From a virus (Duplodnaviria; Caudoviricetes), in the IMG/VR virus record IMGVR_UViG_3300042397_003635: a DNA stretch of 64,000 bases. One strand, written 5' to 3'. The notes under the pieces are model-generated. The model was not told the origin of the DNA, ran no database searches, and was given only the letters and a program-made list of their open reading frames with translations. This document shows, in pieces, positions 21,629 to 34,716 of this stretch (position 1 is the first letter of the stretch; each line of letters starts with the position of its first letter). Position numbers and translations under genes: made by a program.

Positions 21629-21634
21629 AATAGT

Positions 21635-22072
21635 TTATAATCTTGAACCTAATTCATTAAATGCGCCAGTTGCAATAGCTCGGCCATCTGCAACTGCTTG
21701 TGACCAACGATCCTTAACCAAGAATCCATTTGACAAATAGTTGTCTAGATAATTATGGATTGGACAGCCTCGACCAGTTTGTTCCTGCCACCAACTATCT
21801 AATTCGATAAAGGCTTCTTCTGGTCCAGCAATAGCAACTGTTTGTGCAATTGGCTGGGTCCTCGATCTAAATACTTTAACAACAAGTACAACCAATCCAA
21901 GCTCAACCAACTTTTCTTTAAACTCTGCTTCATCGACTAGGCCACTTAGGAGTTTACCATGCAGATCAATGCGTTTAGTTGTAATACCACCTTCACCAAG
22001 ACCTAGATCTTGAAGCCTTTGCCAAGTAGCAAAGGAAAATGATTCGGATATAGTATGGCGATTAATCAACAC
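21635..22072 (-). CDS. Hypothetical protein with RLxDLGL motif
   Basis: MLINRHTISES..QRLQDLGL. Confidence 0.55.
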   Translation of the reverse strand: MLINRHTISESFSFATWQRLQDLGLGEGGITTKRIDLHGKLLSGLVDEAEFKEKLVELGLVVLVVKVFRSRTQPIAQTVAIAGPEEAFIELDSWWQEQTGRGCPIHNYLDNYLSNGFLVKDRWSQAVADGRAIATGAFNELGSRL

Positions 22073-22736
22073 GGCGCTCGCTAAATAATTGGTCTATCTT
22101 TTGTACAACTTTCCAAGGATCGCTTGAGTCAATTGACTCTTCCCTTACTGGATCCTTGCTTGAGTGCCACAAGATTCGTAGAGTACCAGGCTCTGCACCA
22201 TAGTCGCTAACTGTAAAGTTATAGTAGTTAGGATATTTCTTTTGGTGACGAGCTCCCATTCGCGAAAGATAAGTCGACTCTGCTTCCCAACGTACCAATT
22301 CAATATTAAGAGAGCCGTCCGCTGATTTGCTCCACTTCCAGCGTCTGCGTTGAATAAGATCCTCAACCGCATTTAGGGCTGAGTCAGCAAGACCCAAGTC
22401 CTCTAGTCGGCGCTTGTCAATATGTTGCTTTTGAATCTGATCCCACTGTTCGGGGTCAAAGCCCTCATTTTTCTTTAATTGACGTTTAACCTCTTCACGA
22501 ACCTTTTCCATTTTTTTGGCATAGGCTGGATTATCTCCACGATTAAAGACAATTTGCTGGTTTAGGGAACCAGTAATTTTACGCATATCACCCTTACGGC
22601 TAGAGATAAGCCACTTTGCTAGGGCCTTGATTCCAAGATCGCGGAATCGGCCATTGGCATCGGGTGCATCTGAGTCTTTCCACTCTGGGCGCCTTGCCTC
22701 ATTAATCCAAGCTGTGAATGTTTTAATTGAAGACAT
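22062..22736 (-). CDS. Putative internal head protein (two domains, RLxDLGL motif)
   Basis: MSSIKTFTAWINEA; internal RRLEDLGL. Confidence 0.6.
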   Translation of the reverse strand: MSSIKTFTAWINEARRPEWKDSDAPDANGRFRDLGIKALAKWLISSRKGDMRKITGSLNQQIVFNRGDNPAYAKKMEKVREEVKRQLKKNEGFDPEQWDQIQKQHIDKRRLEDLGLADSALNAVEDLIQRRRWKWSKSADGSLNIELVRWEAESTYLSRMGARHQKKYPNYYNFTVSDYGAEPGTLRILWHSSKDPVREESIDSSDPWKVVQKIDQLFSERRVD

Positions 22737-22743
22737 ATTCTAT

Positions 22744-23136
22744 TTAGATTTTTGTAAATTTAACACCAACTCCTAGGGTAGTATGGTCAACTGATTTACC
22801 ATTAGCAAGATCAGGTAAGATTTTGGTTAGATCGTCATACTCTACCGTATATGGATCAACGCCGCCCTGTACAGTACGACCAATTTGCATGCCGCCGTCT
22901 CCTAATTTCTTAAGCCAATTAAAATTAATTGCATATTGGTTATTAAGAGCAACTCCAATTATTTTGTAATTAAATACTTTGCCAGCACCGTTCTTAACTG
23001 CAATTGCATTGCCGCCTTTGTCCGCTGCCTTTGAAATAGTAGCCTTTACTGGATTTGCCCAGCTAATTGACCCTGGTCCAGGTACAGCTACATCAGCATC
23101 TTCCCGTAACCAACCTTCAAACAATTTTACCCACAT
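22744..23136 (-). CDS. Putative internal head protein
   Basis: MWVKLFEGWLRED; late promoter at 23159-23167. Confidence 0.6.
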   Translation of the reverse strand: MWVKLFEGWLREDADVAVPGPGSISWANPVKATISKAADKGGNAIAVKNGAGKVFNYKIIGVALNNQYAINFNWLKKLGDGGMQIGRTVQGGVDPYTVEYDDLTKILPDLANGKSVDHTTLGVGVKFTKI

Positions 23137-23158
23137 AATAGAATTAGTCTATTTCTTA

Positions 23159-23180
23159 TTATTTATCCCCCAAATAAATA
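23159..23180. promoter_or_regulatory. Back-to-back T4-late-like promoters
   Basis: ttatttatc (minus-strand GATAAATAA) and AATAAATA (plus) separated by 5 bp between divergent genes. Confidence 0.65.
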
Positions 23181-23202
23181 GCTATAACAAGACCATTATA
23201 CT

Positions 23203-23832
23203 ATGAATCATAACTATTACTATATCCTCTTAGGAAAAAAGGCAGGTGGACCGGGTACCCAACCCACATCTAACTGTTCGGACTCTCTACAATTTAGATA
23301 CTATTCAATTAATACTCCAGCTGGCCAAAGTGGCGATTGGTATTATGGTATATCGGATCCAGATCCTGCGCTTGCCTGGTCAGGTCTGGTCTTTGGCGGA
23401 ATCGTTGAGGTATGGGCTTCAACTCAAGTCCTAGAGGTCGGTACAAAACTCTATACGGACCAAGCCCAAACCCAAGAAATAAGGGCAGTAGATGACGGTG
23501 CGCAATTCAGGATAGAGGCAAATCTCTTTACCTATAAGGTTGGGCTTGGTATTATGGCGATTACCCAAATGGCTGAACCCCCTGATATTCAAATCAGGAT
23601 GAGCGGACCGGAGCCTGGTTCCTGTGCCCTAAGCGGACCCTATACCCAAACCGTATGGGTTGCCAGGGACCTGTGGCAGCAAGTTGACCGGGTATGGCTA
23701 GACCCTGCCCTAACCCAGCCCTATGTAGGCGGTGATAACTGGTACTATGCTGATGATACTACTATTCCAGCAGCCGGTACAACCTTACAGATTAATAACT
23801 GCGGTTGGGTTATTGGCTTCTATGCTTGCTAG
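23203..23832 (+). CDS. Putative structural/tail-associated protein with internal repeat
   Basis: Two related Trp/Tyr-rich modules (VWASTQVLEVGTKLYTD / VWVARDLWQQVDRVWLD); late promoter upstream. Confidence 0.45.
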   Translation: MNHNYYYILLGKKAGGPGTQPTSNCSDSLQFRYYSINTPAGQSGDWYYGISDPDPALAWSGLVFGGIVEVWASTQVLEVGTKLYTDQAQTQEIRAVDDGAQFRIEANLFTYKVGLGIMAITQMAEPPDIQIRMSGPEPGSCALSGPYTQTVWVARDLWQQVDRVWLDPALTQPYVGGDNWYYADDTTIPAAGTTLQINNCGWVIGFYAC

Positions 23833-23846
23833 TTCTAGGCTTTTTT

Positions 23847-23872
23847 CCGCCTCTAAACTTCGAGGGGCGGCT
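23847..23872. terminator. Hairpin terminator, possibly bidirectional
   Basis: CCGCCTCT-AAACTTCG-AGGGGCGG flanked by T-rich runs. Confidence 0.55.
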
Positions 23873-24008
23873 CTTTACCTATAATATGGGTACTGGTATC
23901 TAGACTACTCTTATTTCTATAGATACTATCTCTACTTATATTAATAATAGAAAGAACAAGCCTAACCCTATACCAGCCAGTCTAGACTCTTCTCTATATT
24001 ATACCTAT

Positions 24009-24196
24009 CTCTATATAGACCAGACCCTACCAGACCGGGACTACGGAGTACTCTATATAGACCAGACCCCAGCCAGCCAGTATACCTATAACCGGGACTA
24101 CGGAGTGCCGCCTGCCAGCCGACCCAAAGGAGTCCACTTGGTCCAGCTTAAGGACTACGGAGTGGTGCGTCTCTTCGTCGGGGCCCGCTACGGAAA
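24009..24196 (+). repeat. Direct-repeat cluster (ACCGGGACTACGGAGT x2, CTCTATATAGACCAGACCC x2, ACTACGGAGT x3)
   Basis: ACTACGGAGT at 24040, 24097, 24154 (57-bp period), variant at 24187. Confidence 0.8.
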
Positions 24197-24293
24197 TCCT
24201 CGGGGTCGGGCGACCGCAGGAGAATCGGACATTAGGTAGAAGCTTGTAGACACCGGGCGCCAGGCTGTCTACTAGTCTGGTATAAATAACCTT

Positions 24294-24929
24294 ATGAAGA
24301 AGCAAGACATACCCCAGCCAGACTCTATACCTACTGGCAGTCTGGTATCGCGAAAGATCGCAGCCCAGAGACTAGGTGTAACCTTAAGAACACTAGACCG
24401 CTATATAGAGCAGGGTAAGCTAAGTCCCTATAAGAACAGGGTTAATGGTAGACTCTATATAGACTCAGACCAGATACTCTATCTACTAGGGAGTAGGGTA
24501 CCCCAAGACCGGTTGGTTATAATATATTGTAGAACGGCCCCCATTCCGGACTCTGGAGCCTCGGGAATCTCCAGCGCGACTCGTCTCAAGGAGCAGGTAG
24601 ACAGGGTACAGGGCTATTGTACGGCTAGGGGAATCCGGGTCGATGAGGTAATCCAAGAGGTACGTCGCGCGAATAGACTAGATGATAATGCACCGGGCTT
24701 GAATAAGATTATGGATTTAGTTGTACGCAAGAAGGTCAGTACCCTGATAATAGAGACCCCAGACAGGCTTGCTCGTTTTCTTGCTTGGGATATACTCGAA
24801 CGTGTCCTTATCTATCATGGTGTAGATGTACATATAATCCAGCCCAAGGTCGGGCGGCAGGAATTCGTCGACGAAATAAAGGAAGAATTAGTAGATATAA
24901 TAGCTAGCGCCAAGGAGCTCGGCATATAA
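24294..24929 (+). CDS. IS607-family TnpA-like serine recombinase, apparently lacking the catalytic Ser
   Basis: MerR-like HTH (AAQRLGVTLRTLDRYIEQGKL); resolvase domain IIYCRTA (canonical YARVS), LKEQ, IIETPDRLARF, EELVDII. Confidence 0.8.
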   Translation: MKKQDIPQPDSIPTGSLVSRKIAAQRLGVTLRTLDRYIEQGKLSPYKNRVNGRLYIDSDQILYLLGSRVPQDRLVIIYCRTAPIPDSGASGISSATRLKEQVDRVQGYCTARGIRVDEVIQEVRRANRLDDNAPGLNKIMDLVVRKKVSTLIIETPDRLARFLAWDILERVLIYHGVDVHIIQPKVGRQEFVDEIKEELVDIIASAKELGI

Positions 24930-25285
24930 TTAAAAACTTTAATATAGAGCAGAGTAGTATAGACCATTAGTCCACCTCCCCTAGAGAGAGGTAGGTCGGA
25001 GTATACTCTCCTGGATCTCTATGCGGGGTCCAGCCCTGGTCGGAGTTCTTGTCCTTATACCTATAGCTAATATACCACTTTTCCATGACACTGGACAATT
25101 TTTTTAAATAAAGTTATTAACAATTTCCCGGGCCTCTATTAGGCGGACATTTCTCCAGGGGCCGGGGATCCCCACGGAGCGGGGTGCGTAAAAATACCTA
25201 TGCCCCGTCGGCATGGCCCAGGGGTTTGGGCCTATTTCTATTATACCTATTTCTAATAAATAATTGCAAATAACCCGGTCTAGAT

Positions 25286-25414
25286 ATGGCAGCAAAGAAA
25301 GGCGCTACCGCTGGAACCCCCTTCCGAGTAAAGGTAAAGAAGGTTGGCAAAGCGAAGAAGAGCTTCGGTCCTAAGGAGCAGAAACCTAAGAAGTACGTAG
25401 GACAAGGTCGATAA
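25286..25414 (+). CDS. Small basic late protein ending YVGQGR (42 aa; not in ORF track)
   Basis: Read manually: MAAKKGATAGTPFRVKVKKVGKAKKSFGPKEQKPKKYVGQGR; AATAAATA at 25255-25262. Confidence 0.7.
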   Translation: MAAKKGATAGTPFRVKVKKVGKAKKSFGPKEQKPKKYVGQGR

Positions 25415-25611
25415 GCCCGGGCCCGGGCTCTAGACAAAAAAGAAAGGGACCGCTTGCGCAGATCCCTTTGGGTTAGCTATCGAAACGGTCTAGATTTAAA
25501 TAGCTGGATAAGAACTCCAAGATCTTATACTGGACTACGGAGTACGGTTTTAACTAAAAAAGAAAAAGGCCCTCTTTCGGAGGGCCAGCTTCTAATCAAT
25601 CAATCATCAAA

Positions 25612-26733
25612 CTATATAGTAGCAAACTGTGCTGCTTCTAAATCATAGTTACTCTTAGCGAAGAGACTTCCACCTGCTGCTTTAAAGCGTGCACGGTTTT
25701 CATACTCTTCTACTGTGTTATGGCTACCTAACCAAGTCAACTCGTTAACAAGATCCCATACACTCATACCTGTCTTGATAAAGCTTTTCTGCTTGTCAGT
25801 CAAGAAATCCGGGTTATGACCTGCATTAAATACTCTGGCCATAGTAGACTTGTACATTGGGAAGTGGTTGTCTACTACGCTTTCCTGTAGACGGCGTCTC
25901 ATTTCAGGATCCTCATGTTTAAGGTTACCTACTACGGAGTCCACCGCTCTTTGTACCTCGCTTAGACTTGCTCGTGTACCAGTTGCGCGTTCCAATCTTT
26001 CAGAGAAGGCACGCGGTACAAAACCATTCTTACCATAAGCTTTAAGGGATTGGAATAACTCGGCAATACCTTGAGCATTTGCCTGTTTTAATTGGAAGGC
26101 CGCTGTCATGTCTTTAGCTACTGCTCCATTAGCACATACTAATCTGTAGAAGAAATCATCTACCTGAGTTTGTGTAGGGTTATTCACCAAAGAGATTCCG
26201 AAACGGAAGACCTCGTCTTTACCGATACGTTCGAAACCTACTTCGCTGGTATGGATAAGGTTAATACGGCTAGTGCCGCCACCATTGTCAATAGACTCGA
26301 TATGCATGTCAGGAACCTCGTTAAGGATCTCCTCTGCAGTTTTAAATAGAGTCTCATTAGAGATACGTGCAAACTTGTCAGCTTTCACGATACCTGTTAC
26401 TTCGCGCTGATCGCGGTTAGCGACCATCATAAGAGGAACATCTCCACCTCTACGCTCTGTATAATGTTTAACTGCACCGATAAGTTTATTACCGATTGCT
26501 GCATCACCGTTCTTCTCAAACTTAGAGTTTAAGGTTTGGTTGATGTTAAGTAGGGAAGCCAGCTGTTTGAAAAACGCGCCGCTAGCTGGGACCCTTGAGT
26601 CATTCAAGTGGATGAAGCCATCCTTCTGTGAATTGTCACTCAATTTGATCTCACTTAGCATTACGGGTTTTGTCAGCGGTTCAGACTTGATTGCGGCTGC
26701 TTTTGCCTCGTTGAATTGTGCTTGTGATAACAT
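25612..26733 (-). CDS. DUF932-like protein
   Basis: FRFGISLVNN..FFYRLVCANGA motif typical of DUF932. Confidence 0.6.
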   Translation of the reverse strand: MLSQAQFNEAKAAAIKSEPLTKPVMLSEIKLSDNSQKDGFIHLNDSRVPASGAFFKQLASLLNINQTLNSKFEKNGDAAIGNKLIGAVKHYTERRGGDVPLMMVANRDQREVTGIVKADKFARISNETLFKTAEEILNEVPDMHIESIDNGGGTSRINLIHTSEVGFERIGKDEVFRFGISLVNNPTQTQVDDFFYRLVCANGAVAKDMTAAFQLKQANAQGIAELFQSLKAYGKNGFVPRAFSERLERATGTRASLSEVQRAVDSVVGNLKHEDPEMRRRLQESVVDNHFPMYKSTMARVFNAGHNPDFLTDKQKSFIKTGMSVWDLVNELTWLGSHNTVEEYENRARFKAAGGSLFAKSNYDLEAAQFATI

Positions 26734-26787
26734 ATATTCTATTTGGTTTTTTTGGTTAATATTATTATACTAAAGAGGAGAGCAGAA

Positions 26788-27906
26788 TTACTGCTCTACC
26801 TCAACTTTATTTTCTTCAGTAAATTCAGTTGGCTCCTCTACTGATGAGGTTTGCAAGGTTGCGCTTAGGAATAGATCATCGAACTCGCTCTCTAATTCTT
26901 CTCGCCTTGCCTCTTCTGTGTGGGCTACCTCTTCAGCTCGGACTAGTTGGTCCCAACTTGCTTGGTCGTAAACTACTTGACCGTCGGCCATTGAGTAGAA
27001 GAGAGGTTTATTTACTAAGCTTCCGCCTCGACGATTCTTTGTAAACTCTAGGTATCTACGATTTCCTGGTCCAAACTTAATCTCCATCATAGAGGTTGTA
27101 GCATGCTTAAGATAAGTAGAACCTACATAGGTACCGCCCTTCGTCATGTGCTGAATACAGAAGATTGATTTACCCATACCATCAGCAGCTTTGATTACAA
27201 GATTAGTTAACCATGCCTCTGCGTAGGTTGACTTCCAGCCTAAGACATCTTTTAGCTTTACAATAATATCTTGGTGCGAGTCAATTAGGATTACATCGTG
27301 TTCTCCAGTCAAGGCCTTTTCAATTGCTTTCACAAAACCCGTTTGAATATAATCCATTAGCAAGAGGGTAGGAACCTCTGCGATAATTGGCATTTTACGG
27401 TAGTAGAAGAAAAGGTCATTACGCGTCATCTCACTAGAAATATACAAGACCTTTGCTTCAGGTTGATTGCGTTTAATCTTCGCCAAGATATCTAGCATCA
27501 CTGTCGACTTACCTACACCTGATTCGCCGATTACAATATTAGCAGTACCGCCATAGATACCTCCACCTTCTTCGTGGTCTGAGAATAGCTTGTCTAGCAA
27601 GGTACCTGTCTTAAAGCATTTAAAATCGGGGAAATCCATGTTTCCAATCTCAACAATCTCCAACTCAACTTCCTTTGCAGCTGCGGATGGGGTTGCAACT
27701 ACTCTGCTTGTTTGTGTTACCTCAGCTACCGTTTGAGGGCCACGCAGTTTTTTAATAACTCCATTAAAAAGGGAGTAAGAGATTCCCTCGCCTAGAGGAT
27801 GGGTTTGAAAGTTTTGGAATAGATCCAATACCTTGCCGGTTGGAACTTCGCCGCTGAATTCCTGTGTAAAATACTTGCGGACTTGGACTTCTTTTTTTCC
27901 GATCAT
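26788..27906 (-). CDS. RadA/Sms-like RecA-fold ATPase (no Zn finger or Lon domain)
   Basis: GESGVGKST (Walker A), VLYISSE, ILIDS (Walker B), HMTKGG, KNRRGG (KNRFG-like). Confidence 0.8.
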   Translation of the reverse strand: MIGKKEVQVRKYFTQEFSGEVPTGKVLDLFQNFQTHPLGEGISYSLFNGVIKKLRGPQTVAEVTQTSRVVATPSAAAKEVELEIVEIGNMDFPDFKCFKTGTLLDKLFSDHEEGGGIYGGTANIVIGESGVGKSTVMLDILAKIKRNQPEAKVLYISSEMTRNDLFFYYRKMPIIAEVPTLLLMDYIQTGFVKAIEKALTGEHDVILIDSHQDIIVKLKDVLGWKSTYAEAWLTNLVIKAADGMGKSIFCIQHMTKGGTYVGSTYLKHATTSMMEIKFGPGNRRYLEFTKNRRGGSLVNKPLFYSMADGQVVYDQASWDQLVRAEEVAHTEEARREELESEFDDLFLSATLQTSSVEEPTEFTEENKVEVEQ

Positions 27907-28087
27907 ATGTTTGATTTTTAATTGATTACTATTATTATACTAATGCAGAGTAGTTATTGGCACTGCTCTTTAGTTTATCTATTTACTACGGAGTCCGGCC
28001 TTGGTCTAAACTGCATAAGCTAATATAATAAAAAAACCCCAAACTAAAAAATCTGGGGTTAATTATTTTTGGAAAAGTTATTAACAA

Positions 28088-28342
28088 TTATTCGATCGTT
28101 TGGACCATGTCCCTAAGTACTGCACACTTCTCGTATTCTTCCCTGTCTTGGAAGTATTGAATCATAGAGTTGAGTGCTTCCTGTTTTTCAAAGGTTGGGG
28201 TCTGGTCGAAGATCGCGCCGCTAAGCTCGTTCTGTAGAGCATCGTATAACAGATTCATGAACGCATCGAAATCTGTATGGCGAAGACTTACCAGCTCGGC
28301 TAGCATTTGGGAAGTCTTAAGGTCTCGTTTTATTTCGTTCAT
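28088..28342 (-). CDS. Small protein with UVR (UvrB/UvrC) motif
   Basis: YFQDREEYEKCAVLRD. Confidence 0.65.
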   Translation of the reverse strand: MNEIKRDLKTSQMLAELVSLRHTDFDAFMNLLYDALQNELSGAIFDQTPTFEKQEALNSMIQYFQDREEYEKCAVLRDMVQTIE

Positions 28343-28403
28343 TGTACAGGTTATTTATCTTGTTATTAATATACCCAATCTACTAGGGAGTAGGCCAGGT
28401 CTA

Positions 28404-28784
28404 TTACCACCATGAGGTGTAATAGACATATTCTCCAGCCGCGATCGCCTCTCTCGCTTCTCTAATAAACTCGAGGTCGCCTTTAATTTCGTCCTCATCC
28501 AATTGGCTATTACCAAAGAAGAAGCCGGCAGTTTGGGGTAATTGACCCTCTTTAATATGGCGCTCTAGCTGGTCCAAATCGTCGAGGTCTACTTCAACAT
28601 TTACACAGTTGAAGCTATCAGCTGTACCGCCTTTAAGGTAATACAAGCTTTCCATCCAACCGTGCAGGTTAGGGTGCTTACGCCAGTAGTGAAGCTCTCT
28701 GTCTTCAACTCCTTCTTCGCTTTTGAAATCTACTGCAGTTTCTGGTTTGGTACTGCGAACCTGTGCATACATGTCTAATCCCAT
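28404..28784 (-). CDS. Conserved hypothetical phage protein
   Basis: MGLDMYA..YWRKHPNLHGWM..FNC..TAGFFFG..VYYTSWW. Confidence 0.75.
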   Translation of the reverse strand: MGLDMYAQVRSTKPETAVDFKSEEGVEDRELHYWRKHPNLHGWMESLYYLKGGTADSFNCVNVEVDLDDLDQLERHIKEGQLPQTAGFFFGNSQLDEDEIKGDLEFIREAREAIAAGEYVYYTSWW

Positions 28785-28834
28785 TTTAGTTTGATTTAAT
28801 TGATTAATATTATTATACTTACTACGGAGTTATC

Positions 28835-29020
28835 TTATTCGTTACCGGCCCCATCGAAGTAGAGGAATTCTACTACCTCAGCTTGGTCAAAGATTCCTAG
28901 GTCTTCGAACATTGTGTAGGCCCCATCGGGGTCGGACATTGCTACGACCTCCATTGCTTGGTAGACCGCGTCCTGACCCCATATTTCGATTGCTTCGTCG
29001 ATTGCTTCTTGCGTTGCCAT
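28835..29020 (-). CDS. Hypothetical acidic protein
   Basis: 61 aa ORF. Confidence 0.6.
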   Translation of the reverse strand: MATQEAIDEAIEIWGQDAVYQAMEVVAMSDPDGAYTMFEDLGIFDQAEVVEFLYFDGAGNE

Positions 29021-29022
29021 AG

Positions 29023-29436
29023 TTAGATAGATTTTAAGAGTTGAGTAAAGTTAGGAGCTTCAGCTAAAGGTTCGTTGAATCCTTTTTCGCGTGAAAAGAT
29101 TTCAGCTTGGCCGCTATGACCAGATTTAGGAGTTACCCAATAGAGTACCTCACCGGATTCGCGATCGCAGATAGAGAATGAATCATAAAGCGGTCCACCC
29201 ATTGGGCAGTTATTCTTAAAGAATACATACACCTTACTGCAATCGATTGGGTTTCCTTTTTCGCGAAAGTACTTTACCAACTTGATTACCTTGCTCTGAA
29301 GGGATTTAGCTCTACGCTCCAATGAAGCATCACTACAAAACCAGTCATAGAAATCATGACAGTGAGAGTACAGAGCAGATTCACCTTGACCCCATGCGTA
29401 CATTTGGTCTACTAATGTTACTTGATTTTCTTGCAT
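29023..29436 (-). CDS. Hypothetical phage protein
   Basis: DFYDWFC..YVFFKNNCPMGGPLYDSFSICD; follows early promoter. Confidence 0.7.
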   Translation of the reverse strand: MQENQVTLVDQMYAWGQGESALYSHCHDFYDWFCSDASLERRAKSLQSKVIKLVKYFREKGNPIDCSKVYVFFKNNCPMGGPLYDSFSICDRESGEVLYWVTPKSGHSGQAEIFSREKGFNEPLAEAPNFTQLLKSI

Positions 29437-29526
29437 AATTAGATTGTTTAAGTATTAATTGATATGTAAATATAACCAAAATCTTTGACAGTAAAAAATA
29501 TTTGGCTACTTTTTTTTAAAATATTT

Positions 29527-29646
29527 TTACACGTAACCTCCGCAATCTCTGCATTTTCTTAGGACCAGTCCAGATACGTGACGGACAGCAATGTAGGTTT
29601 TTTCGTGCGGGCAGCTCTTTGGTTTTTCTATTTGTTTATTTTGCAT
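29527..29646 (-). CDS. Zn-ribbon microprotein (39 aa; not in ORF track)
   Basis: Read manually: MQNKQIEKPKSCPHEKTYIAVRHVSGLVLRKCRDCGGYV; ATG 2 nt after the promoter motif. Confidence 0.55.
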   Translation of the reverse strand: MQNKQIEKPKSCPHEKTYIAVRHVSGLVLRKCRDCGGYV

Positions 29647-29936
29647 ATGTAAATATAACCAATTAGTTTGACACTAAAAAACTTTTTTATACTTTTTTTC
29701 AAATTATTTTTCAGAAGTTATTAACATACTTATTAACATTCCAAAAAGTCTGAGGTAGGTCGGAGTATACCTCCCGCTTCCTTGTTCCGAACCGTCCCGT
29801 CATATTGATTGATTGACATAGTAAATATAACCAATTAGTTTGAAAGAAAAAAATATTTGATGAATTATTTTCAAAATATTTTAAACAAAAAAGGGAGAAC
29901 TTTCGATCTCCCAATTTCTATCAATTAACTACTAAA

Positions 29937-30353
29937 CTAAAACTCACTTCGTAATTCGTCGAGACGGGCTTTTTCTTGTGGAGTTAGACCACTTAAACCT
30001 TTAACTGAAATCAATTCCAGTAAATCGTCCATTGTGAGGTCCACAGTGAAATTGGTTTGGGATGAGGTTTCACCTAAACCAAAAACGGATTTACGAACTT
30101 TTTCTGGAAGATTAACATCGAAATCTTCTAAGGTCGTAACCATAAATGGTACTTCACTTAACTCACTATCGTTTTTAAAACGATCTCTAATTTGAGTTGG
30201 GGTCAACTCACTTTTGAAAACTGAAATAATAATTCCTGGAAGTGGAAGAATTTTCGCTTCAGTTTTGTTAGCGATAATTTCAGACATTAGGACTTCTGAA
30301 ACTCTTGGGTCTGGACCCATCCCGAAACGGGCGAACACGATTTGATTTGACAT
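29937..30353 (-). CDS. Hypothetical protein
   Basis: C-terminal LTMDDLLELISVKGLSGLTPQEKARL; follows early promoter. Confidence 0.65.
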   Translation of the reverse strand: MSNQIVFARFGMGPDPRVSEVLMSEIIANKTEAKILPLPGIIISVFKSELTPTQIRDRFKNDSELSEVPFMVTTLEDFDVNLPEKVRKSVFGLGETSSQTNFTVDLTMDDLLELISVKGLSGLTPQEKARLDELRSEF

Positions 30354-30454
30354 ATAGATTGGTTTTAATTATAAAGTAAATATAAACAATATTCTTGACA
30401 AGTAAAAACTTTTAGTGAATTATTTTCCAAAAAGTTATTAACAATTGGGAGAGA

Positions 30455-30670
30455 TTAATCTTCTCTCTCCCATTCTTCAATGACCTCCGCATCATAAAGG
30501 TCTCCACGACTTCCAAATCCAAATGTTCCTTCGATCGTTGGTTTACATAGGATTACTTTGTAGTTATAGGCTTCTTCGCAACACGCCTCAAACTCCGCTT
30601 GGGCTTTTTCAAGATTTTCAGTTAAGAAATAGGAATCACCATCGTGATTAAGATTGATAATTAGGTACAT
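30455..30670 (-). CDS. Hypothetical protein
   Basis: Follows early promoter at 30699. Confidence 0.6.
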   Translation of the reverse strand: MYLIINLNHDGDSYFLTENLEKAQAEFEACCEEAYNYKVILCKPTIEGTFGFGSRGDLYDAEVIEEWERED

Positions 30671-30756
30671 AAGTTTTTATTTAGTTGATTAATATAAGGC
30701 TAATATAACCAAAATACTTGACACTAAAAAATTTTTTTACACTTTTTTTCAAAAAA

Positions 30757-30912
30757 TTATGGGACTATAAAATCCCATAACTCTTCTCCTGTTGGCTTGC
30801 CATCTCGAAGAATCTCGTAGTTTGGATCCATGCCGCTGGACATGACATCATCGATAAGTTCTTGTAGCGTTGGGAATTCCTTCTTGTAGTAGCTGCAATC
30901 TAGTGTCCACAT
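30757..30912 (-). CDS. Hypothetical microprotein (51 aa; not in ORF track)
   Basis: Read manually: MWTLDCSYYKKEFPTLQELIDDVMSSGMDPNYEILRDGKPTGEELWDFIVP. Confidence 0.65.
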   Translation of the reverse strand: MWTLDCSYYKKEFPTLQELIDDVMSSGMDPNYEILRDGKPTGEELWDFIVP

Positions 30913-31009
30913 AATTTCTAGTTTAATTGGTTATAATGCTAATATAATAAAAAATCCCCAAAGAAAAAAATCTTTGAGGACTTATTTTAAGAAAAGTTAT
31001 TAACAGTTC

Positions 31010-31237
31010 TTATAGCTCCATAACCAACTGGGCTAAGCCACTAGCTAGCCAGTCTTGAATCTCTTTAAAAGCATTGTCTGCTTCTTCTTGAGTTCCAAAA
31101 GAAATGGTCTTAATTTGACGTGTAGTCTCCGGCCAAACAATACGGATTACCGCATTTGTTAAGTGGATTTCTTCGCCACCACCCAAGCAATAGATTACTT
31201 TGGTGTCTTCTCTGTGTAGTACTAGTGTCTTAACCAT
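31010..31237 (-). CDS. Hypothetical protein
   Basis: 75 aa, coupled to the upstream gene. Confidence 0.55.
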   Translation of the reverse strand: MVKTLVLHREDTKVIYCLGGGEEIHLTNAVIRIVWPETTRQIKTISFGTQEEADNAFKEIQDWLASGLAQLVMEL

Positions 31238-31599
31238 TACTTTGTTGTTTTAGTTGTCTTGGATTTAGGAGTAGTTGCCTTTGCAGCTGGCTTGCTTGCC
31301 TTCTGCGCAGGTTTTGCAGAGGTCTTAGACGTCTTTGCAGTTGTCTTAGTTGTCTCTTTAGCAGGCTTAGTCGAAGCTTTCTTAGGAGCTTTCTTCTCAG
31401 CTTTAGTAGGGGCTGGTGCTACGGTTTCTTCAGCTACTACTGGATAAGGTTTCGCAACCTCTTCCGCTTTTGCTGTAGGAATCTCGTTAACAACCGCTGA
31501 CCATTTCTCGAATGAATCAACGATTTGTTTATCCTTAGCTACTTCTTGTTCTGCTTTACCCGTCAATCCTTTAAACCAGTTTGCGATCGCTTTAAACAT
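31237..31599 (-). CDS. Lys/Ala/Thr-rich histone-H1-like protein
   Basis: C-terminal KKAPKKASTKPAKETTKTTAKTSKTSAKPA tail. Confidence 0.55.
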   Translation of the reverse strand: MFKAIANWFKGLTGKAEQEVAKDKQIVDSFEKWSAVVNEIPTAKAEEVAKPYPVVAEETVAPAPTKAEKKAPKKASTKPAKETTKTTAKTSKTSAKPAQKASKPAAKATTPKSKTTKTTK

Positions 31600-31716
31600 G
31601 AGTATAAGTATTTTTGATATCTTTTATTAATATACATTAAAAGGTTTTAATATTAACCCAAAACAGGAGGTCGCTGGGACACTCCTGTTGGATTATCTTT
31701 TGAGGGATAATAGAAT

Positions 31717-32022
31717 CTATTGAATCGCTAAAAGGGCTGTCAACTCAATAAGAGCTTGTCTTGTAACAATACCCGAATCTCCGCCAATATGCCATTCAAT
31801 AATCTCGTCTTTCTTTATTGGTCTATACTCTTTCCAATCATAGATTGTGAATACTCGTCCGTCATTTAATTCGCAAGTCCAGTCAAAGTTTACTTTATCC
31901 TCGCCAGTATTCTCGCTATGCTGGGGCTCACCAATCGCCTGGACTAATTGGTTATAAGAACACACGATTACAGTGTCGTGAAAGGACGTCATGTTAGCAG
32001 ATTTAAAACTTAGTTTAGCCAT
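31717..32022 (-). CDS. Hypothetical phage protein
   Basis: SYNQLVQAIGEP..DKVNFDW..FTIYDWK..WHIGG. Confidence 0.7.
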   Translation of the reverse strand: MAKLSFKSANMTSFHDTVIVCSYNQLVQAIGEPQHSENTGEDKVNFDWTCELNDGRVFTIYDWKEYRPIKKDEIIEWHIGGDSGIVTRQALIELTALLAIQ

Positions 32023-32152
32023 AGTTATATTTGATTTAATTGATTACTAGATTCCAGCTGGCCCCTGTGCGGAGGCCTTGTCAGAGATTTGATGTGCAGA
32101 TTGTTTTTGTTTCATATGTAAATATAAACAATTTCTTTGACACTAAAAAATT

Positions 32153-32392
32153 TTATTTCAAATTTTTATACCAGTTAAGGGTACCTTGCATCTTTCGAAT
32201 TTTCATGTCTAGACCAAAGTTAGATCCAACTAATCGACCTACTTTCATAGGATAGAATCCCATCTCGTCTTTACCTGTTTCGTCAGCTCCAATTTCTTCA
32301 ATGGATTTGGAGTGTTCTTCTAATTCTGTTATAAATTTTTCAATATCTTCCATTAAGGAAGCATAAGCCCGGGCTTTTTCGTGTACTGTCAT
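32153..32392 (-). CDS. Hypothetical protein
   Basis: 79 aa ORF. Confidence 0.55.
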   Translation of the reverse strand: MTVHEKARAYASLMEDIEKFITELEEHSKSIEEIGADETGKDEMGFYPMKVGRLVGSNFGLDMKIRKMQGTLNWYKNLK

Positions 32393-32398
32393 ATCTTT

Positions 32399-32710
32399 TT
32401 ATTTTAATAATTTAATTGGAGTTCCAACATTATAGATTAAGCTTGAAAAGAATTTGAATCCTTTATAGCTTGTCTTATCTGCGCGACCAATAGCACCCAT
32501 AAGATCGTTAGCAATAAAGCTCTGTACAAAGCTTCCACCTTCATATCCTACCTTCCACTTAGTGCAAAGCATAGAAGTTCCTATATCGATGAGGTGTAAT
32601 CTTTCGCTTTCTGATATTTCGGATAATCCTGTCCATTGAGCATTATCATCAAGGTAGGTTTCTACCTCTGCTCTTACGATGTTAATTTGTTCTTCTCTAG
32701 TCATTGTCAT
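32399..32710 (-). CDS. Hypothetical protein
   Basis: GYEGGSFVQSFIANDLMGAIGRAD; follows early promoter. Confidence 0.65.
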   Translation of the reverse strand: MTMTREEQINIVRAEVETYLDDNAQWTGLSEISESERLHLIDIGTSMLCTKWKVGYEGGSFVQSFIANDLMGAIGRADKTSYKGFKFFSSLIYNVGTPIKLLK

Positions 32711-32795
32711 ATTGTTTGATTTACATAGTAAATATAATAAAAAAACCTGAATTAAAAAAATCCAGGCTTAATTATTTTCTAAAAAGTTATTAACA

Positions 32796-32936
32796 TTATT
32801 CAGGCTTACCGTCTATACCCCATCTCTCTTTTTGTTCTTCTTCAAGTATATCCAGTTCTTTATCAAGATCCTCTAGCCATTGATCCAGGTCTTGTTGCGC
32901 AGGTTGTTCTGCCCCTTCTTTTTCTTTTGGATCCAT
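32796..32936 (-). CDS. Acidic microprotein (46 aa; not in ORF track)
   Basis: Read manually: MDPKEKEGAEQPAQQDLDQWLEDLDKELDILEEEQKERWGIDGKPE. Confidence 0.5.
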   Translation of the reverse strand: MDPKEKEGAEQPAQQDLDQWLEDLDKELDILEEEQKERWGIDGKPE

Positions 32937-32945
32937 AATAATAGA

Positions 32946-33111
32946 TTATTTTTTACTTACTGCCCATATTTGCAAGAATGCTTTAAGCGGTAGATTCTTG
33001 CGATTTGCGAAGTGTTTAGCGGCGGCCAATCTGCCAGTTGTAAAAACTTTATCAACAGCCTCGGTTGATTTATCAAGTTTTGCGTAATAGTAATAGGTTC
33101 CTACTGACATG
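32946..33111 (-). pseudogene. Small gene with an apparent +1 frameshift near its start
   Basis: ATG frame gives MSVGT then stops after 12 aa; an alternative frame without a start gives YYYYAKLDKSTEAVDKVFTTGRLAAAKHFANRKNLPLKAFLQIWAVSKK. Confidence 0.35.
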
Positions 33112-33147
33112 ATTATATGTTATGTTATAGTATTATCTATTCTTATA

Positions 33148-33459
33148 CTAATAGCTTGCATTTCTGGTTTCGCCAGTTCGCCTATTATGTGCATACTTTA
33201 TTCCTAATCCCTTATGCTCGTATAATAAGATTCCATTAGTAAAAGAAATAGGTTCTTCTTTTTCTAATCCTAATCTATACATACCTCTGCTTTCGCCAGT
33301 TGCAGTAAAGAAATTGCATTCGCCGGTTCTAGACATGCAACAGATTTCTTCTCTATCCCAACCAATTATCTCGTAATTACCTAAGACAAACTGGGTTCGT
33401 GTACCATCGTCGTGTACAACGCTAGCATAGCTTCCTTGCTCTTCGACATAGCTTATCAT
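33148..33459 (-). CDS. Hypothetical protein
   Basis: 103 aa ORF. Confidence 0.55.
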   Translation of the reverse strand: MISYVEEQGSYASVVHDDGTRTQFVLGNYEIIGWDREEICCMSRTGECNFFTATGESRGMYRLGLEKEEPISFTNGILLYEHKGLGIKYAHNRRTGETRNASY

Positions 33460-33857
33460 ATCTTTCCTTCTTTAAATTGTTTATTAAAATCTTCTTCTGT
33501 CATAAACCCATCCTTAATCATGTCATCGTAGGCACAACCCTTTGCGCTGGTCTTATAGACTACTTCACCACTTGGATCCAGCTCAGCCTCAAGTAATCCA
33601 GCATCTACCATTTCTGAAATAGTATTCCGCAATTGCGCCTTTTCTGCTGACTCTATTGCAGCTACTACTTGTGCTTCGCTAAGCTGAGGTGTAGCTTCCA
33701 TTACCAACTGGCCTCGCATATTATCAAGGGCCATGTTAGTTATTTCAAGAATTAGAGTTTCTTGATCTAGGTCTCCTTCTTTATCGTCGTCTAAAATTGC
33801 GATAGCGATTTCAAGAGCATATCCTTTAGCGATCCATTGTTTAAGTTGGTCTTGCAT
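33456..33857 (-). CDS. Hypothetical acidic protein
   Basis: 133 aa ORF. Confidence 0.55.
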   Translation of the reverse strand: MQDQLKQWIAKGYALEIAIAILDDDKEGDLDQETLILEITNMALDNMRGQLVMEATPQLSEAQVVAAIESAEKAQLRNTISEMVDAGLLEAELDPSGEVVYKTSAKGCAYDDMIKDGFMTEEDFNKQFKEGKI

Positions 33858-33878
33858 TTTCTTTAGATTTAAAATTGA

Positions 33879-34595
33879 TTAGTTAAAAGCTTTACGTAGT
33901 TTGTGACGAGCTAAGCGAAGAGTTTGATTCACTTTAGAAATTTCCATTCCTAATTCATCAGCAGTTTCTTTAGCAGAGCGAGCTTCGCCTCTGTCGATTC
34001 CATAGAAAGTTTCGATTACCTTACGGTCATGGTCATTTAACTTGTTTAGCACTGCTGCAACTTGTTGCTCAACACTTTGCTCTTCAAATGGATCTACAAA
34101 ATCTGCACGAAGAATAAGATCACCTAAGGTATTATCTCCATCCTCGCCGATTGGGCGGTCTAATCTAATATTAGTAAGATTAATATCCTCACCAGCCATT
34201 TTGCGCTTGTAGATATCGTATTCCTGATTCATAGGCAAACGTACAGTACGTCCATACTCGCCAAGCGCAGTATTTAATTTCTTACGAATCCAAAACTGTG
34301 CATAAGTAATAAATTTAACATCTTTATCTGGAGTAAAACGACGAGCAGCTTCAATTAGACCGCAATTAGCTTCCATGATAAGGTCATCGATTGGTAGACC
34401 TAGTCCAATAAACTTATTCGCTAAGGTTACAGCGAACTTAAGGTTAGCATTTACTAGGGAGTGCAATGCTGCCTCGTCTCCGGCCTGAATCCGGATAGCT
34501 AATTCTTTTTCCGCAGCCTTGCTTAAAGGCTTCGCCAGTTTGTCAATACTCTTAAAGTATGCTGGTAAGTTAGATGATGCTTCAAATTTTGCCAT
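33879..34595 (-). CDS. RNA polymerase sigma-70 family factor (group 2/3-like; regions 1.2, 2, 4)
   Basis: YFKSIDKLAKPLSKAAEKEL, LVNANLKFAV, DDLIMEANCGLIEAARRF, KFITYAQFWIR, C-terminal HTH. Confidence 0.9.
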   Translation of the reverse strand: MAKFEASSNLPAYFKSIDKLAKPLSKAAEKELAIRIQAGDEAALHSLVNANLKFAVTLANKFIGLGLPIDDLIMEANCGLIEAARRFTPDKDVKFITYAQFWIRKKLNTALGEYGRTVRLPMNQEYDIYKRKMAGEDINLTNIRLDRPIGEDGDNTLGDLILRADFVDPFEEQSVEQQVAAVLNKLNDHDRKVIETFYGIDRGEARSAKETADELGMEISKVNQTLRLARHKLRKAFN

Positions 34596-34716
34596 AATTA
34601 TTTTTTTAAATTGATTGATTTATAATGTAAATATAATACTTTTTCTTGACATAGTACAATGTTTTTTAAAAAAGTTATTAACATTGTTTACTAGGGAGTG
34701 GCCCCTAGCCGGGGCC

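What the first reader, a model, noticed from the sequence alone, without database searches (positions are those of the whole stretch)
24294..24929. IS607 TnpA-like recombinase with the catalytic Ser replaced, no tnpB and a late promoter: a domesticated DNA-binding protein?
Seen: full MerR-HTH plus resolvase architecture, but the nucleophile motif reads TAT TGT AGA ACG GCC = YCRTA instead of YxRVS, followed by an insertion (PIPDSGASGISS). The ORF is intact, has an exact TATAAATA 5 nt before its ATG, has no tnpB partner and sits beside direct repeats. Established: IS607 TnpA dimers bind short direct repeats and oligomerise along DNA. Inference: the phage has co-opted a catalytically dead transposase as a sequence-specific organiser (origin, packaging or regulatory factor).
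Basis: partly seen in the sequence, partly recalled or inferred. Interest (0 to 1): 0.8.

Follow-up and report, generated by a model that had tools for sequence, protein, structure and literature searches.

The report
Dead IS607 transposase kept by jumbo phages
A family of large lake phages has kept, for a very long time and always at the same place, a transposase-derived DNA-binding protein that has lost its cutting serine, and its gene lies at the head of a zone marked by a strictly one-stranded 10-base motif, so it looks like a jumping-gene enzyme turned into a genome-organising or DNA-marking factor.

Summary
ORF 24294-24929 (+) is a 211-aa IS607-TnpA-type protein (winged-helix HTH plus serine-recombinase fold). 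It reads YCRTA where the family has YxRVS, followed by a longer loop, and it has no tnpB.

It is not a decaying IS. It is single-copy and lies at the same syntenic position in about 30 viral contigs, including complete ~270-kb genomes, down to 26% identity. dN/dS is 0.05-0.09. Orthologues without the loop insertion read YCRVAG or YCRVPG, so Ser-to-Ala is the right alignment. No other Ser is universally kept, but R80, D157, R158 and R161 are.

ACTA[CG]GGAG(T) occurs 184 times on one strand and 0 on the other in 20 loci, is confined to an 8-22 kb zone, and forms 56-58-nt arrays around the gene.

An exact TATAAATA is unique in the window. Its core, (G)ATAAATAA, is the phage's recurrent late-type promoter element and is conserved 12 nt before the start codon.

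Best reading: a domesticated, non-recombining DNA-binding protein that reads these sites. Its role is inferred. Rivals are a hydrolytic nickase, or a factor unrelated to the motif; one relative keeps the motif without the gene at this slot.

This scan found dead IS607 TnpA genes before, in a giant virus.

The parts
24294..24929 (+). TnpA-like gene, 211 aa: winged-helix HTH (about residues 16-66) plus a serine-recombinase-fold domain (residues 74-208) without the nucleophile Ser
   Evidence: AF2 model pLDDT 84; the best Foldseek matches are IS607-family TnpA catalytic domains 6dgc/3lhk/3lhf/3ilx, TM 0.70-0.75
24525..24539 (+). Y78-C79-R80-T81-A82: the former nucleophile motif (YxRVS in the family), with Ala at the Ser position
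   Evidence: A82 follows strand beta1 (74-81) directly in the model
24540..24575 (+). Enlarged loop P83-S94 between beta1 and helix A. S93 is the helix N-cap. The DNA at 24550-24558 (ACTCTGGAG) is a degenerate copy of the zone motif.
   Evidence: S87 and S90 are not conserved. S93 is replaced by A, G or D in several orthologues.
24281..24288 (+). TATAAATA; its core ATAAATA(A) is the late-type promoter element, 5 nt before the ATG (the mRNA would be nearly leaderless)
24040..24163 (+). Array of three ACTACGGAGT copies (24040, 24097, 24154), period 57 nt, with C-rich variable spacers
   Evidence: the same arrays with 56-58 nt periods occur in the orthologous loci
24485..24494 (+). Motif copy ACTAGGGAGT inside the gene; it encodes part of the conserved interdomain linker LLGSR
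25534..25543 (+). Motif copy downstream of the gene, just after the intrinsic-terminator-like hairpin that ends the minus-strand gene 25612-26733
25931..34699 (+). Six further motif copies (25931, 27985, 28382, 28821, 34453, 34690). All are on the + strand, antisense to the minus-strand genes of this zone. There are none elsewhere in the 64 kb.
   Evidence: 11 copies against 0.41 expected; 0 on the minus strand
24011..24462 (.). Palindrome CTATATAG x4 (24011, 24053, 24401, 24455; a fifth copy at 25612), specific to the window's closest relatives
   Evidence: 7 in the window against 1.4 expected
25286..25414 (+). 42-aa very basic ORF after the gene, conserved in close relatives; function unknown

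Best explanation
The gene encodes a descendant of an IS607-family TnpA serine transposase that these phages have kept as a gene of their own. It retains the winged-helix DNA-binding domain and the recombinase fold, but it has lost the serine that makes the covalent DNA link, its tnpB partner and all signs of mobility (shown). It therefore most likely no longer recombines DNA and instead works as a sequence-specific DNA-binding protein (inferred). IS607 TnpA dimers are known to bind short directly repeated motifs cooperatively through the winged helix and to bring DNA segments together. The most likely targets here are therefore the co-oriented ACTA[CG]GGAGT sites, which form 56-58-nt arrays around its own gene and are scattered through the adjoining 8-22 kb zone of minus-strand genes (inferred). 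Earlier scan notes call this zone the early cassette; I did not test that. The gene carries the phage's late-type promoter element directly before its start codon, so the protein is probably made late. It would then coat, bridge or mark this zone, for example to shut it down or to define it for a directional process (speculative). My layered odds are: domesticated gene 0.9; no serine-recombinase chemistry 0.8; binds the motif 0.5; any particular role 0.3 or less.
For: Architecture and fold. Ser loss: canonical relatives read YxRVSS. The window clade reads YCR(T/A/S/V)A plus a longer loop. Syntenic distant orthologues without the insertion read YCRVAGTTES or YCRVPG. No alternative Ser is universal. 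In a tree of 152 relatives a branch with 99% SH-aLRT support separates 59 rows (50 Ser-less, including all phage orthologues) from 93 rows (85 with Ser). Vertical inheritance: the order TnpA-like(+), 373-aa gene(-), AAA_25 ATPase(-), sigma-70 gene(-) holds in all loci with enough flank, down to 26% identity. There is one copy per genome and no TnpB in complete relatives. Selection: dN/dS is 0.047-0.087 in close pairs. Motif: 11 copies in the window, all on +, all within 24040-34698. A complete 270-kb relative has 10 copies on one strand within 8.2 kb and none elsewhere. Twenty loci hold 184 copies on one strand and none on the other, and 31 of the 35 short spacings fall at 56-58 nt. The motif also lies beside more distant Ser-less clade members. 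Late-type element: ATAAATA precedes 17 of 74 ORFs in the window and stands at a conserved distance before the orthologues' start codons. GATAAATAA occurs 26-30 times per relative genome against 0 for the reversed control. Known TnpA behaviour (directly repeated motifs, cooperative binding by the winged helix, end pairing): PMC6188088.
Against: Binding of this protein to the motif was not tested. The motif stays almost invariant while the HTH diverges to about 25% identity. Contig L105 keeps the array and motif next to the same 373-aa and ATPase genes, but a different 134-aa ORF sits in the TnpA-like slot. So the motif can exist without this gene in cis. R80, D157, R158, R161, Y78 and Q101 stay conserved, which a purely DNA-binding protein would not obviously need. 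Two clade members have Ser back at the A82 column (P0027, P0058). Perfect co-orientation is not needed for simple binding.
Confidence: 0.5

Rival explanations
1. The protein is still an enzyme. With the Ser gone but the phosphate-activating Arg/Asp residues kept, it would use water (or another residue) to cut one strand at or near the motif. That would produce site- and strand-specific nicks like those of phages T5, phiKMV and tf. In a T4-type phage such nicks could load the sliding clamp in one orientation and so act as enhancers of late promoters on one strand.
For: Y78, R80, D157, R158, R161 and Q101 are conserved across all Ser-less orthologues. The motif has the signature of known nick sites: about 10 nt with one degenerate position, 10-15 copies, one strand only, and similar positions in relatives. 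Phage tf has 14 TACT/RTGMC sites on one strand only, and phiKMV-like phages have CGACxxxxxCCTA/CTCCGG on the non-coding strand (PMC3517423). The T4 late enhancer is a single-strand break that must lie in the non-transcribed strand and may be near or kilobases away (PMC2988020). Seen on the minus strand, about 15 of the 58 lone intergenic copies lie up to about 30 nt upstream of an ATAAATA element (my reading of the list). From my own knowledge: replacing the nucleophile Tyr of vaccinia topoisomerase gives a site-specific endonuclease.
Against: No nick was observed, and only assembled contigs could be laid. The R45 equivalent and the SG motif are lost in the window's clade, and R161 is lost in one clade (DRLIV). 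IS607 TnpA cuts at the element tips, not in its binding motifs. The share of motif copies followed by ATAAATA (about 26%) is no higher than for any gene-upstream region (23% of ORFs). No T4 gp45 C-terminal domain was detected in relatives (a weak test).
Confidence: 0.15
2. The protein is an ordinary local transcription factor or autoregulator that reads some other operator, for example the CTATATAG palindromes. The one-stranded motif would then belong to another system: another protein, a phage sigma factor, or RNA-RNA pairing between plus-strand array transcripts and the minus-strand mRNAs of the zone.
For: L105 keeps the motif without the gene in its slot. The motif is constant while the HTH diverges. 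CTATATAG is enriched around the gene: 5 of the 7 copies in the window lie at 24.0-25.6 kb. In L074 the motif lies on the strand opposite to the gene. Co-orientation on the DNA is what antisense pairing with minus-strand mRNAs would need.
Against: In every locus with enough flank but one, the gene and the arrays are adjacent. The arrays flank the gene or enter its coding sequence. Directly repeated short motifs are the documented target type of this protein family (PMC6188088). CTATATAG is limited to the window's closest relatives. No extra conserved promoter element accompanies the motif.
Confidence: 0.25
3. It is a selfish IS607 remnant, either still mobile without tnpB or decaying.
For: Motif copies lie on both sides of the gene, as subterminal TnpA-binding motifs do in IS607 ends. 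GC is 49% locally against about 35% elsewhere.
Against: It is single-copy and sits at the same position across phages that have diverged to 26% identity. The frame is intact everywhere, dN/dS is 0.05-0.09, and the nucleophile is absent.
Confidence: 0.02

Closest known systems
IS607-family TnpA serine transposases (IS607, IS1535, ISC1904, ISC1926; PDB 6dgc, 6dgb, 3ilx, 3lhf)
   Same: The domain order is the same (N-terminal winged helix, C-terminal serine-recombinase fold). Sequence and fold matches are best to this family. Y, R and the DRLxR residues are kept. Short directly repeated motifs lie around the gene.
   Different: There is no nucleophile Ser, and the beta1-helix A loop is longer. 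The last ~14 positions of the family model are absent. The score is below NCBIfam's cut-off. There is no tnpB, and the gene is single-copy and vertically inherited. Motif spacing is 56-58 nt rather than about one helical turn, and the motif spreads over 8-22 kb.
Putatively domesticated IS607-like genes of eukaryotes (Gilbert and Cordaux 2013, PMC3673617) and the dead IS607 TnpA of Bodo saltans virus noted earlier in this scan
   Same: They are IS607 TnpA descendants under purifying selection at fixed loci. The giant-virus case has also lost catalytic residues.
   Different: Here the lineage is a bacteriophage one, the orthologues are deep and numerous, and a candidate target motif with a striking genomic pattern is at hand.
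TldR, nuclease-dead TnpB-derived repressors (bioRxiv 10.1101/2023.11.30.569447)
   Same: This is domestication of the other protein of IS605/IS607 elements into a non-cutting DNA-binding regulator, also found in phages.
   Different: The protein and the mode of recognition differ: TldR is RNA-guided, while this protein would read DNA through a winged helix.
Localised single-strand interruption sites of phages T5/BF23, phiKMV-like phages and tf (PMC3517423)
   Same: The motif behaves like these consensus sites: short, one strand only, about 10-15 per genome, at similar places in relatives.
   Different: No nick has been shown here. The sites are confined to one zone and form regular arrays, and no serine-recombinase-like protein is known to make such nicks.
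Site clusters read by dedicated DNA-binding proteins encoded nearby (ParB-parS, SopB-sopC 43-bp repeats, RacA-ram, Tus-Ter); from my own knowledge
   Same: Many copies of one site are clustered near the gene of the presumed binding protein. Tus-Ter sites are likewise polar and co-oriented.
   Different: The protein family is different. No partition or termination function is indicated.

Membership tests
IS607-family TnpA serine transposase | N-terminal MerR-like winged helix followed by a serine-recombinase catalytic domain | tested here: met
IS607-family TnpA serine transposase | Nucleophile Ser in YxRVS(S/T) | tested here: not met
   YCRTA; A82 sits at the Ser column. Orthologues read YCRVAG or YCRVPG.
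IS607-family TnpA serine transposase | Other active-site residues (equivalents of resolvase Y6, R8, R45, D67, R68, R71) | tested here: inconclusive
   Y78, R80, D157, R158 and R161 are kept. The R45 equivalent and the SG motif are lost in the window's clade.
IS607-family TnpA serine transposase | Score at or above the curated NCBIfam NF033518 cut-off (110 bits) | tested here: not met
   93.5 bits, model positions 3-173 of 187
IS607-family TnpA serine transposase | Part of a mobile element: several copies or variable sites, defined ends, usually with tnpB | tested here: not met
   One copy per genome, a fixed syntenic site, and no PF07282 match in complete relatives
Pfam Resolvase (PF00239) fold family | Domain score above the gathering threshold | tested here: met
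   40.1 bits against 23.3
MerR-family transcription regulators | MerR HTH plus a C-terminal coiled-coil dimerisation and effector domain | tested here: not met
   The HTH matches are below their cut-offs (24 against 28.2 bits). The C-terminal part is a resolvase fold.
Phage localised-nick sites (T5, phiKMV, tf type) | Short consensus present on one strand only, at similar places in related phages | tested here: met
   compared with PMC3517423
Phage localised-nick sites (T5, phiKMV, tf type) | A physical single-strand break at the site in virion DNA | not testable with these tools
   Only assembled contigs of public runs could be laid.

The most novel reading that the evidence does not exclude
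The Ser-less recombinase is a new kind of site-specific nickase. It would be a serine-recombinase active site that has swapped its protein nucleophile for water. It would write strand-specific nicks at ACTA[CG]GGAGT, and these nicks would be built-in clamp-loading enhancers that couple T4-type late transcription, or another directional process, to one strand of a defined genome zone. If so, it would also name an enzyme class for the long-unexplained localised nicks of phage genomes.
Probability: 0.12. Interest if true: 0.9.

Novelty: new variant of a known kind. Interest (0 to 1): 0.68.

Why it matters
Catalytically dead transposases reused as host proteins are well known in eukaryotes. I found no paper describing a dead serine transposase (IS607 TnpA) kept as a core phage gene. 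Here the case is unusually clean. There are dozens of orthologues, strict synteny and strong selection. A whole clade of mostly Ser-less relatives exists in metagenomes. A candidate DNA target shows a rare pattern: one strand only, one genome zone only, regular arrays, and near-invariance across deep divergence. If the protein reads that motif, it gives a tractable model for how a transposase's end-binding and end-pairing machinery becomes a genome-organising device. If it nicks, it would explain the strand-specific nicks of phage DNA and tie them to the nick-dependent late transcription of T4-type phages.

Tried and rejected
- Near-identical or related cultured phages: none in INPHARED for the 10-kb region or for the neighbouring ATPase. 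The best tblastn hits of the protein are ordinary IS607 TnpAs at 30% identity or less.
- The window's own assembly is not held. The nearest held record, G001, is a fragment without this region.
- Rfam: nothing at gathering thresholds in the window, and only a chance-level hit around the gene. There are no tRNAs in the window.
- Expression: contigs of four metatranscriptome runs cover the 373-aa and ATPase genes. Only one short contig (24450-24647) and one 3'-end contig touch the TnpA-like gene, and none covers the array. Contigs give no strand, start or level, so I draw no inference.
- Homodimer prediction of residues 71-211: no verdict (score 0.33, mark 0.42).
- T4 gp45 C-terminal domain (PF09116) in two complete relatives: no match. 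This is a weak test for a divergent phage.
- Scan of bacterial genomes for two motif copies 45-49 nt apart: 8 hits. By my estimate about 20 are expected by chance. One is a 254-kb contig of a Bacteroidetes MAG that carries the gene and is evidently the phage. The others are unrelated tandem repeats or lone pairs.
- The motif as a promoter: no second conserved element lies within 45 nt on either side, and the distance to ATAAATA elements or start codons is variable.
- Covariation between motif variant and HTH: the C variant dominates in the window's clade and in the distant groups, and the G variant dominates in the 42-50% clades. This is confounded with phylogeny, so I do not use it as evidence.
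- S87, S90 or S93 as a replacement nucleophile: S87 and S90 are not conserved. S93 is the helix-A N-cap in the model and is A, G or D in several orthologues. This is rejected as a family-wide feature but not excluded for this one protein.

Full report
**1. The observation**

The ORF at 24294-24929 (+) is intact and encodes 211 residues.
- Pfam finds a Resolvase domain (residues 76-206, 40.1 bits, cut-off 23.3). It also finds sub-threshold HTH_17 and MerR matches at residues 23-62.
- NCBIfam's IS607 transposase model matches at 93.5 bits, below its cut-off of 110, over model positions 3-173 of 187. PHROG 6620 (transposase) matches at 7.7e-30.
- The solved relatives found by sequence are the catalytic domains of ISC1926, ISC1904 and IS1535 TnpA.
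- An AlphaFold2 model built on 56 sequences (mean pLDDT 84) matches those same structures best (TM 0.70-0.75, rmsd 2-3 Å).
- The codons TAT TGT AGA ACG GCC (YCRTA) are at 24525-24539, and TATAAATA is at 24281-24288, 5 nt before the ATG.
- GGACTACGGAGT occurs at 24038, 24095, 24152 and 25532, four copies against 0.08 expected.

**2. Is the nucleophile really gone?**

A phmmer alignment to 3lhf paired I92-S93-S94 with the family's V-S-S. I therefore tested the alternative that an 11-residue insertion separates R80 from a retained Ser. The homologues decide against it.
- Canonical relatives read YxRVSS.
- The window's clade reads YCR(T/A/S/V)A followed by a longer loop.
- Syntenic orthologues from more distant phages have no insertion and read YCRVAGTTESDR or YCRVPGTTESDR. 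Ala (or Pro) therefore occupies the Ser column.
- In the model, strand beta1 is 74-81, the loop is 82-93 (lower confidence) and helix A is 94-111. A82 follows the strand directly and S93 is the helix N-cap.
- S87 and S90 are not conserved. S93 is A, G or D in several orthologues.
- Two clade members (P0027, P0058) have Ser at the A82 column, so Ala and Ser seem to interchange there.
- Y78, R80 and R158 are invariant, and D157 and R161 nearly so, across 56 Ser-less and canonical sequences. The equivalent of resolvase R45 and the SG motif are lost in the window's clade.
- The protein also ends about 14 model positions (roughly 20 residues) before canonical TnpAs do.

**3. A gene of the phage, not an insertion sequence**

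- The large protein collections hold more than 50 homologues at 42-95% identity. The 1.8-billion-representative search gives nine hits at E of 1e-30 or better, then a gap down to about 1e-17 for full-length hits.
- Contexts were fetched for about 40 contigs. A script then compared the neighbours. In every locus with enough flank the order is TnpA-like(+), a 373-aa DUF932-like gene(-), an AAA_25/RecA-like ATPase(-) and, some kilobases on, a sigma-70-family gene(-). This holds down to orthologues with 26-30% identity, whose ATPase is still 50-53% identical.
- Several contigs are complete or near-complete genomes of 253-271 kb. Each holds one copy and has no TnpB zinc-ribbon domain, while the control genomes match.
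- Pairwise dN/dS (NG86) in close pairs is 0.047-0.087.
- In a tree of 152 relatives, a branch with 99% SH-aLRT support separates 59 rows from 93 rows. The 59 rows are 50 Ser-less and 9 with Ser, and they include all the syntenic phage proteins. The 93 rows are 85 with Ser and 8 without. The careful tree search did not finish, so this is the quick tree.
- The loss is therefore old and mostly vertical, and Ser-less IS607-TnpA-like proteins are a sizeable, apparently undescribed clade.

**4. The repeats are part of something larger**

- The core ACTA[CG]GGAG occurs 11 times in the window, against 0.41 expected. All copies are on the + strand and all lie between 24040 and 34698.
- A complete 270-kb relative has 10 copies on one strand within 8.2 kb and none elsewhere. 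A 253-kb relative has 13 within 11 kb, and a more distant one has 15 within 22 kb. None lies on the other strand.
- Across 20 representative loci there are 184 copies on the gene's strand and none on the other. In 33 ATPase-anchored loci only 2 copies lie on the wrong strand.
- The consensus is (G/T)(G/T)(T/G)ACTA(G/C)GGAGT(A/C)C. Of the 35 short spacings, 31 are 56-58 nt.
- The arrays have conserved cores and fast-changing, C-rich spacers of constant length. Depending on the clade they lie upstream of the gene, downstream of it, or on both sides.
- Copies also sit inside the gene. In the window and the 42-50% clades one copy encodes the linker LLGSR. In the distant orthologues the motif encodes G-T-T-E-S, that is, the degenerate nucleophile loop itself. 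In the 42% clade a second copy encodes VLGSR in that loop. The window's loop codons for P-D-S-G-A are a degenerate copy, and an exact copy would create a TAG stop in that frame.
- In the window's clade, synonymous divergence in the HTH-coding third of the gene is 4-17 times lower than in the rest (dS 0.05-0.23 against 0.86-2.9). That points to nucleotide-level constraint or recent recombination there.
- The motif also accompanies more distant members of the Ser-less clade (L009, L075, L076). In L074 it lies on the strand opposite to the gene.

**5. One counter-example**

A pattern scan for two motif copies 45-49 nt apart found 31 viral stretches. Most belong to contigs of this lineage that I had already fetched; eight were new. 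Contig L105 (4.5 kb) has the 373-aa gene (45% identical), the ATPase (60%), a two-copy array and further copies. Between the array and the 373-aa gene it holds a different 134-aa ORF on the other strand and no TnpA-like sequence. The 134-aa protein matches no family. The gene could lie elsewhere in that genome. Even so, this shows the motif can persist without the gene in cis.

**6. The promoter claim**

- The exact octamer TATAAATA is unique in the window, against 9.4 expected, so it is not itself a recurrent signal.
- Its core is. ATAAATA, often as GATAAATAACTACAAA, lies within 45 nt upstream of 17 of 74 ORFs, typically starting 28-35 nt before the ATG.
- GATAAATAA occurs 26-30 times in each of two relatives, against 0 for the reversed control.
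- Before the TnpA-like gene the element starts at -12, and orthologues down to 42% identity keep (G)ATAAATAA at the same distance. A distant orthologue has it 16 nt before its ATG.
- By analogy with T4 late promoters, transcription would start at or next to the ATG. The analogy with T4 and the nearly leaderless mRNA are inferences.
- Earlier notes of this scan describe the phage as a T4-like jumbo phage of Bacteroidota, and the 25.6-39.5 kb block as an early cassette on the minus strand. I did not test those notes. I did see intrinsic-terminator-like hairpins and TAnnTTTG-like boxes on the minus strand there.

**7. How it most likely works**

- For IS607-family TnpA it is established that the ends carry short directly repeated motifs. 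Dimers bind them cooperatively through the N-terminal winged helix, spread along DNA and pair two ends, with the active sites held away from the DNA (PMC6188088).
- A descendant that keeps this binding and pairing apparatus but lacks the nucleophile would be a sequence-specific DNA-coating or bridging protein. Co-oriented direct repeats around and beyond its gene are what it would be expected to read.
Only domestication and nucleophile loss are shown. Binding to the motif, and any role (late silencing or marking of the zone, origin, packaging), are inferred.

**8. Rivals**

*Nickase.*
- The motif's pattern is that of the localised nick sites of phages tf (14 sites of TACT/RTGMC, one strand only), phiKMV-like phages and T5 (PMC3517423).
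- The late enhancer of T4 is a nick that must lie in the non-transcribed strand and may be near or far from the promoter (PMC2988020).
- The Arg/Asp residues kept around the lost Ser would suit a hydrolytic nickase.
- No nick has been seen, and part of the active site is degraded, so I give this reading 0.15.

*The motif belongs to another system.* The protein would then be an ordinary local regulator. L105 and the motif's constancy support this, while the near-universal adjacency of gene and arrays speaks against it. I give this 0.25.

*Selfish or decaying IS remnant.* This is contradicted by the synteny, copy number and selection results.

**9. Novelty**

- Possible domestication of IS607-like genes was suggested for eukaryotes from dN/dS alone (PMC3673617).
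- Nuclease-dead TnpB derivatives (TldR) are known.
- This scan earlier noted dead IS607 TnpA genes in Bodo saltans virus.
- I found no paper on a Ser-less IS607 TnpA kept by bacteriophages, or on this motif.
- I class it as a new variant of a known kind. If the nickase reading proved true, it would be a categorically new function.

Noticed in passing
window 24040-34698, and the same zone in all related loci (for example G002 230072-238258): ACTA[CG]GGAG(T) is strictly one-stranded and confined to one 8-22 kb zone of 250-270 kb genomes. Seen on the minus strand, lone intergenic copies often follow terminator-like hairpins, and some precede ATAAATA elements by up to about 30 nt.
   Followed up: partly
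window 24339-24503 (HTH-coding part of the gene): Synonymous divergence among the window's closest relatives is 4-17 times lower here than in the rest of the gene (dS 0.05-0.23 against 0.86-2.9). This suggests overlapping DNA or RNA constraints, or a recent recombination tract.
   Followed up: partly
window 25286-25414 (+): A 42-aa, very basic ORF is conserved at 88-100% in close relatives. A basic 54-aa ORF occupies the same position in L105; small ORFs of 47 and 50 aa lie there in L005 and L007 (not compared). It matches no family.
   Followed up: no
window 25612-26733 (-): This 373-aa gene is always next to the TnpA-like gene. It has a weak DUF932 match (E 0.035) and is covered by contigs of all four metatranscriptome runs laid.
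   Followed up: no
window-wide (for example before 931, 16998, 19361, 23136, 23203, 40060, 42529, 42928, 47691, 56786, 62462): (G/A)ATAAATAACTACAAA lies about 28-35 nt before many ORF starts. It is probably this phage's late promoter, a variant of T4's TATAAATA.
   Followed up: partly
window 24011, 24053, 24401, 24455, 25612: The palindrome CTATATAG is clustered around the gene (7 in the window against 1.4 expected). It is limited to the window's closest relatives.
   Followed up: partly
L105 379-783 (-): A 134-aa ORF of no known family replaces the TnpA-like gene between the motif array and the 373-aa gene in one related contig.
   Followed up: partly
loci L026, L028, L029, L030, L033, L035, L002, L005, L006: Many independent metagenome contigs end within about 500 nt upstream of the gene or inside its first 250 nt. 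The array region may be hypervariable among strains, poorly covered, or physically interrupted.
   Followed up: no
window 21000-29000: G+C is raised to 41-49% against about 35% in the rest of the window, with the peak on the TnpA-like gene and its array.
   Followed up: no
L110 (CAIWBA010000291.1, a 254-kb contig binned in an uncultured Bacteroidetes MAG): This contig carries the TnpA-like gene and a five-copy array. It is evidently a genome of this phage lineage binned with a Bacteroidetes genome, which is a hint to the host.
   Followed up: no
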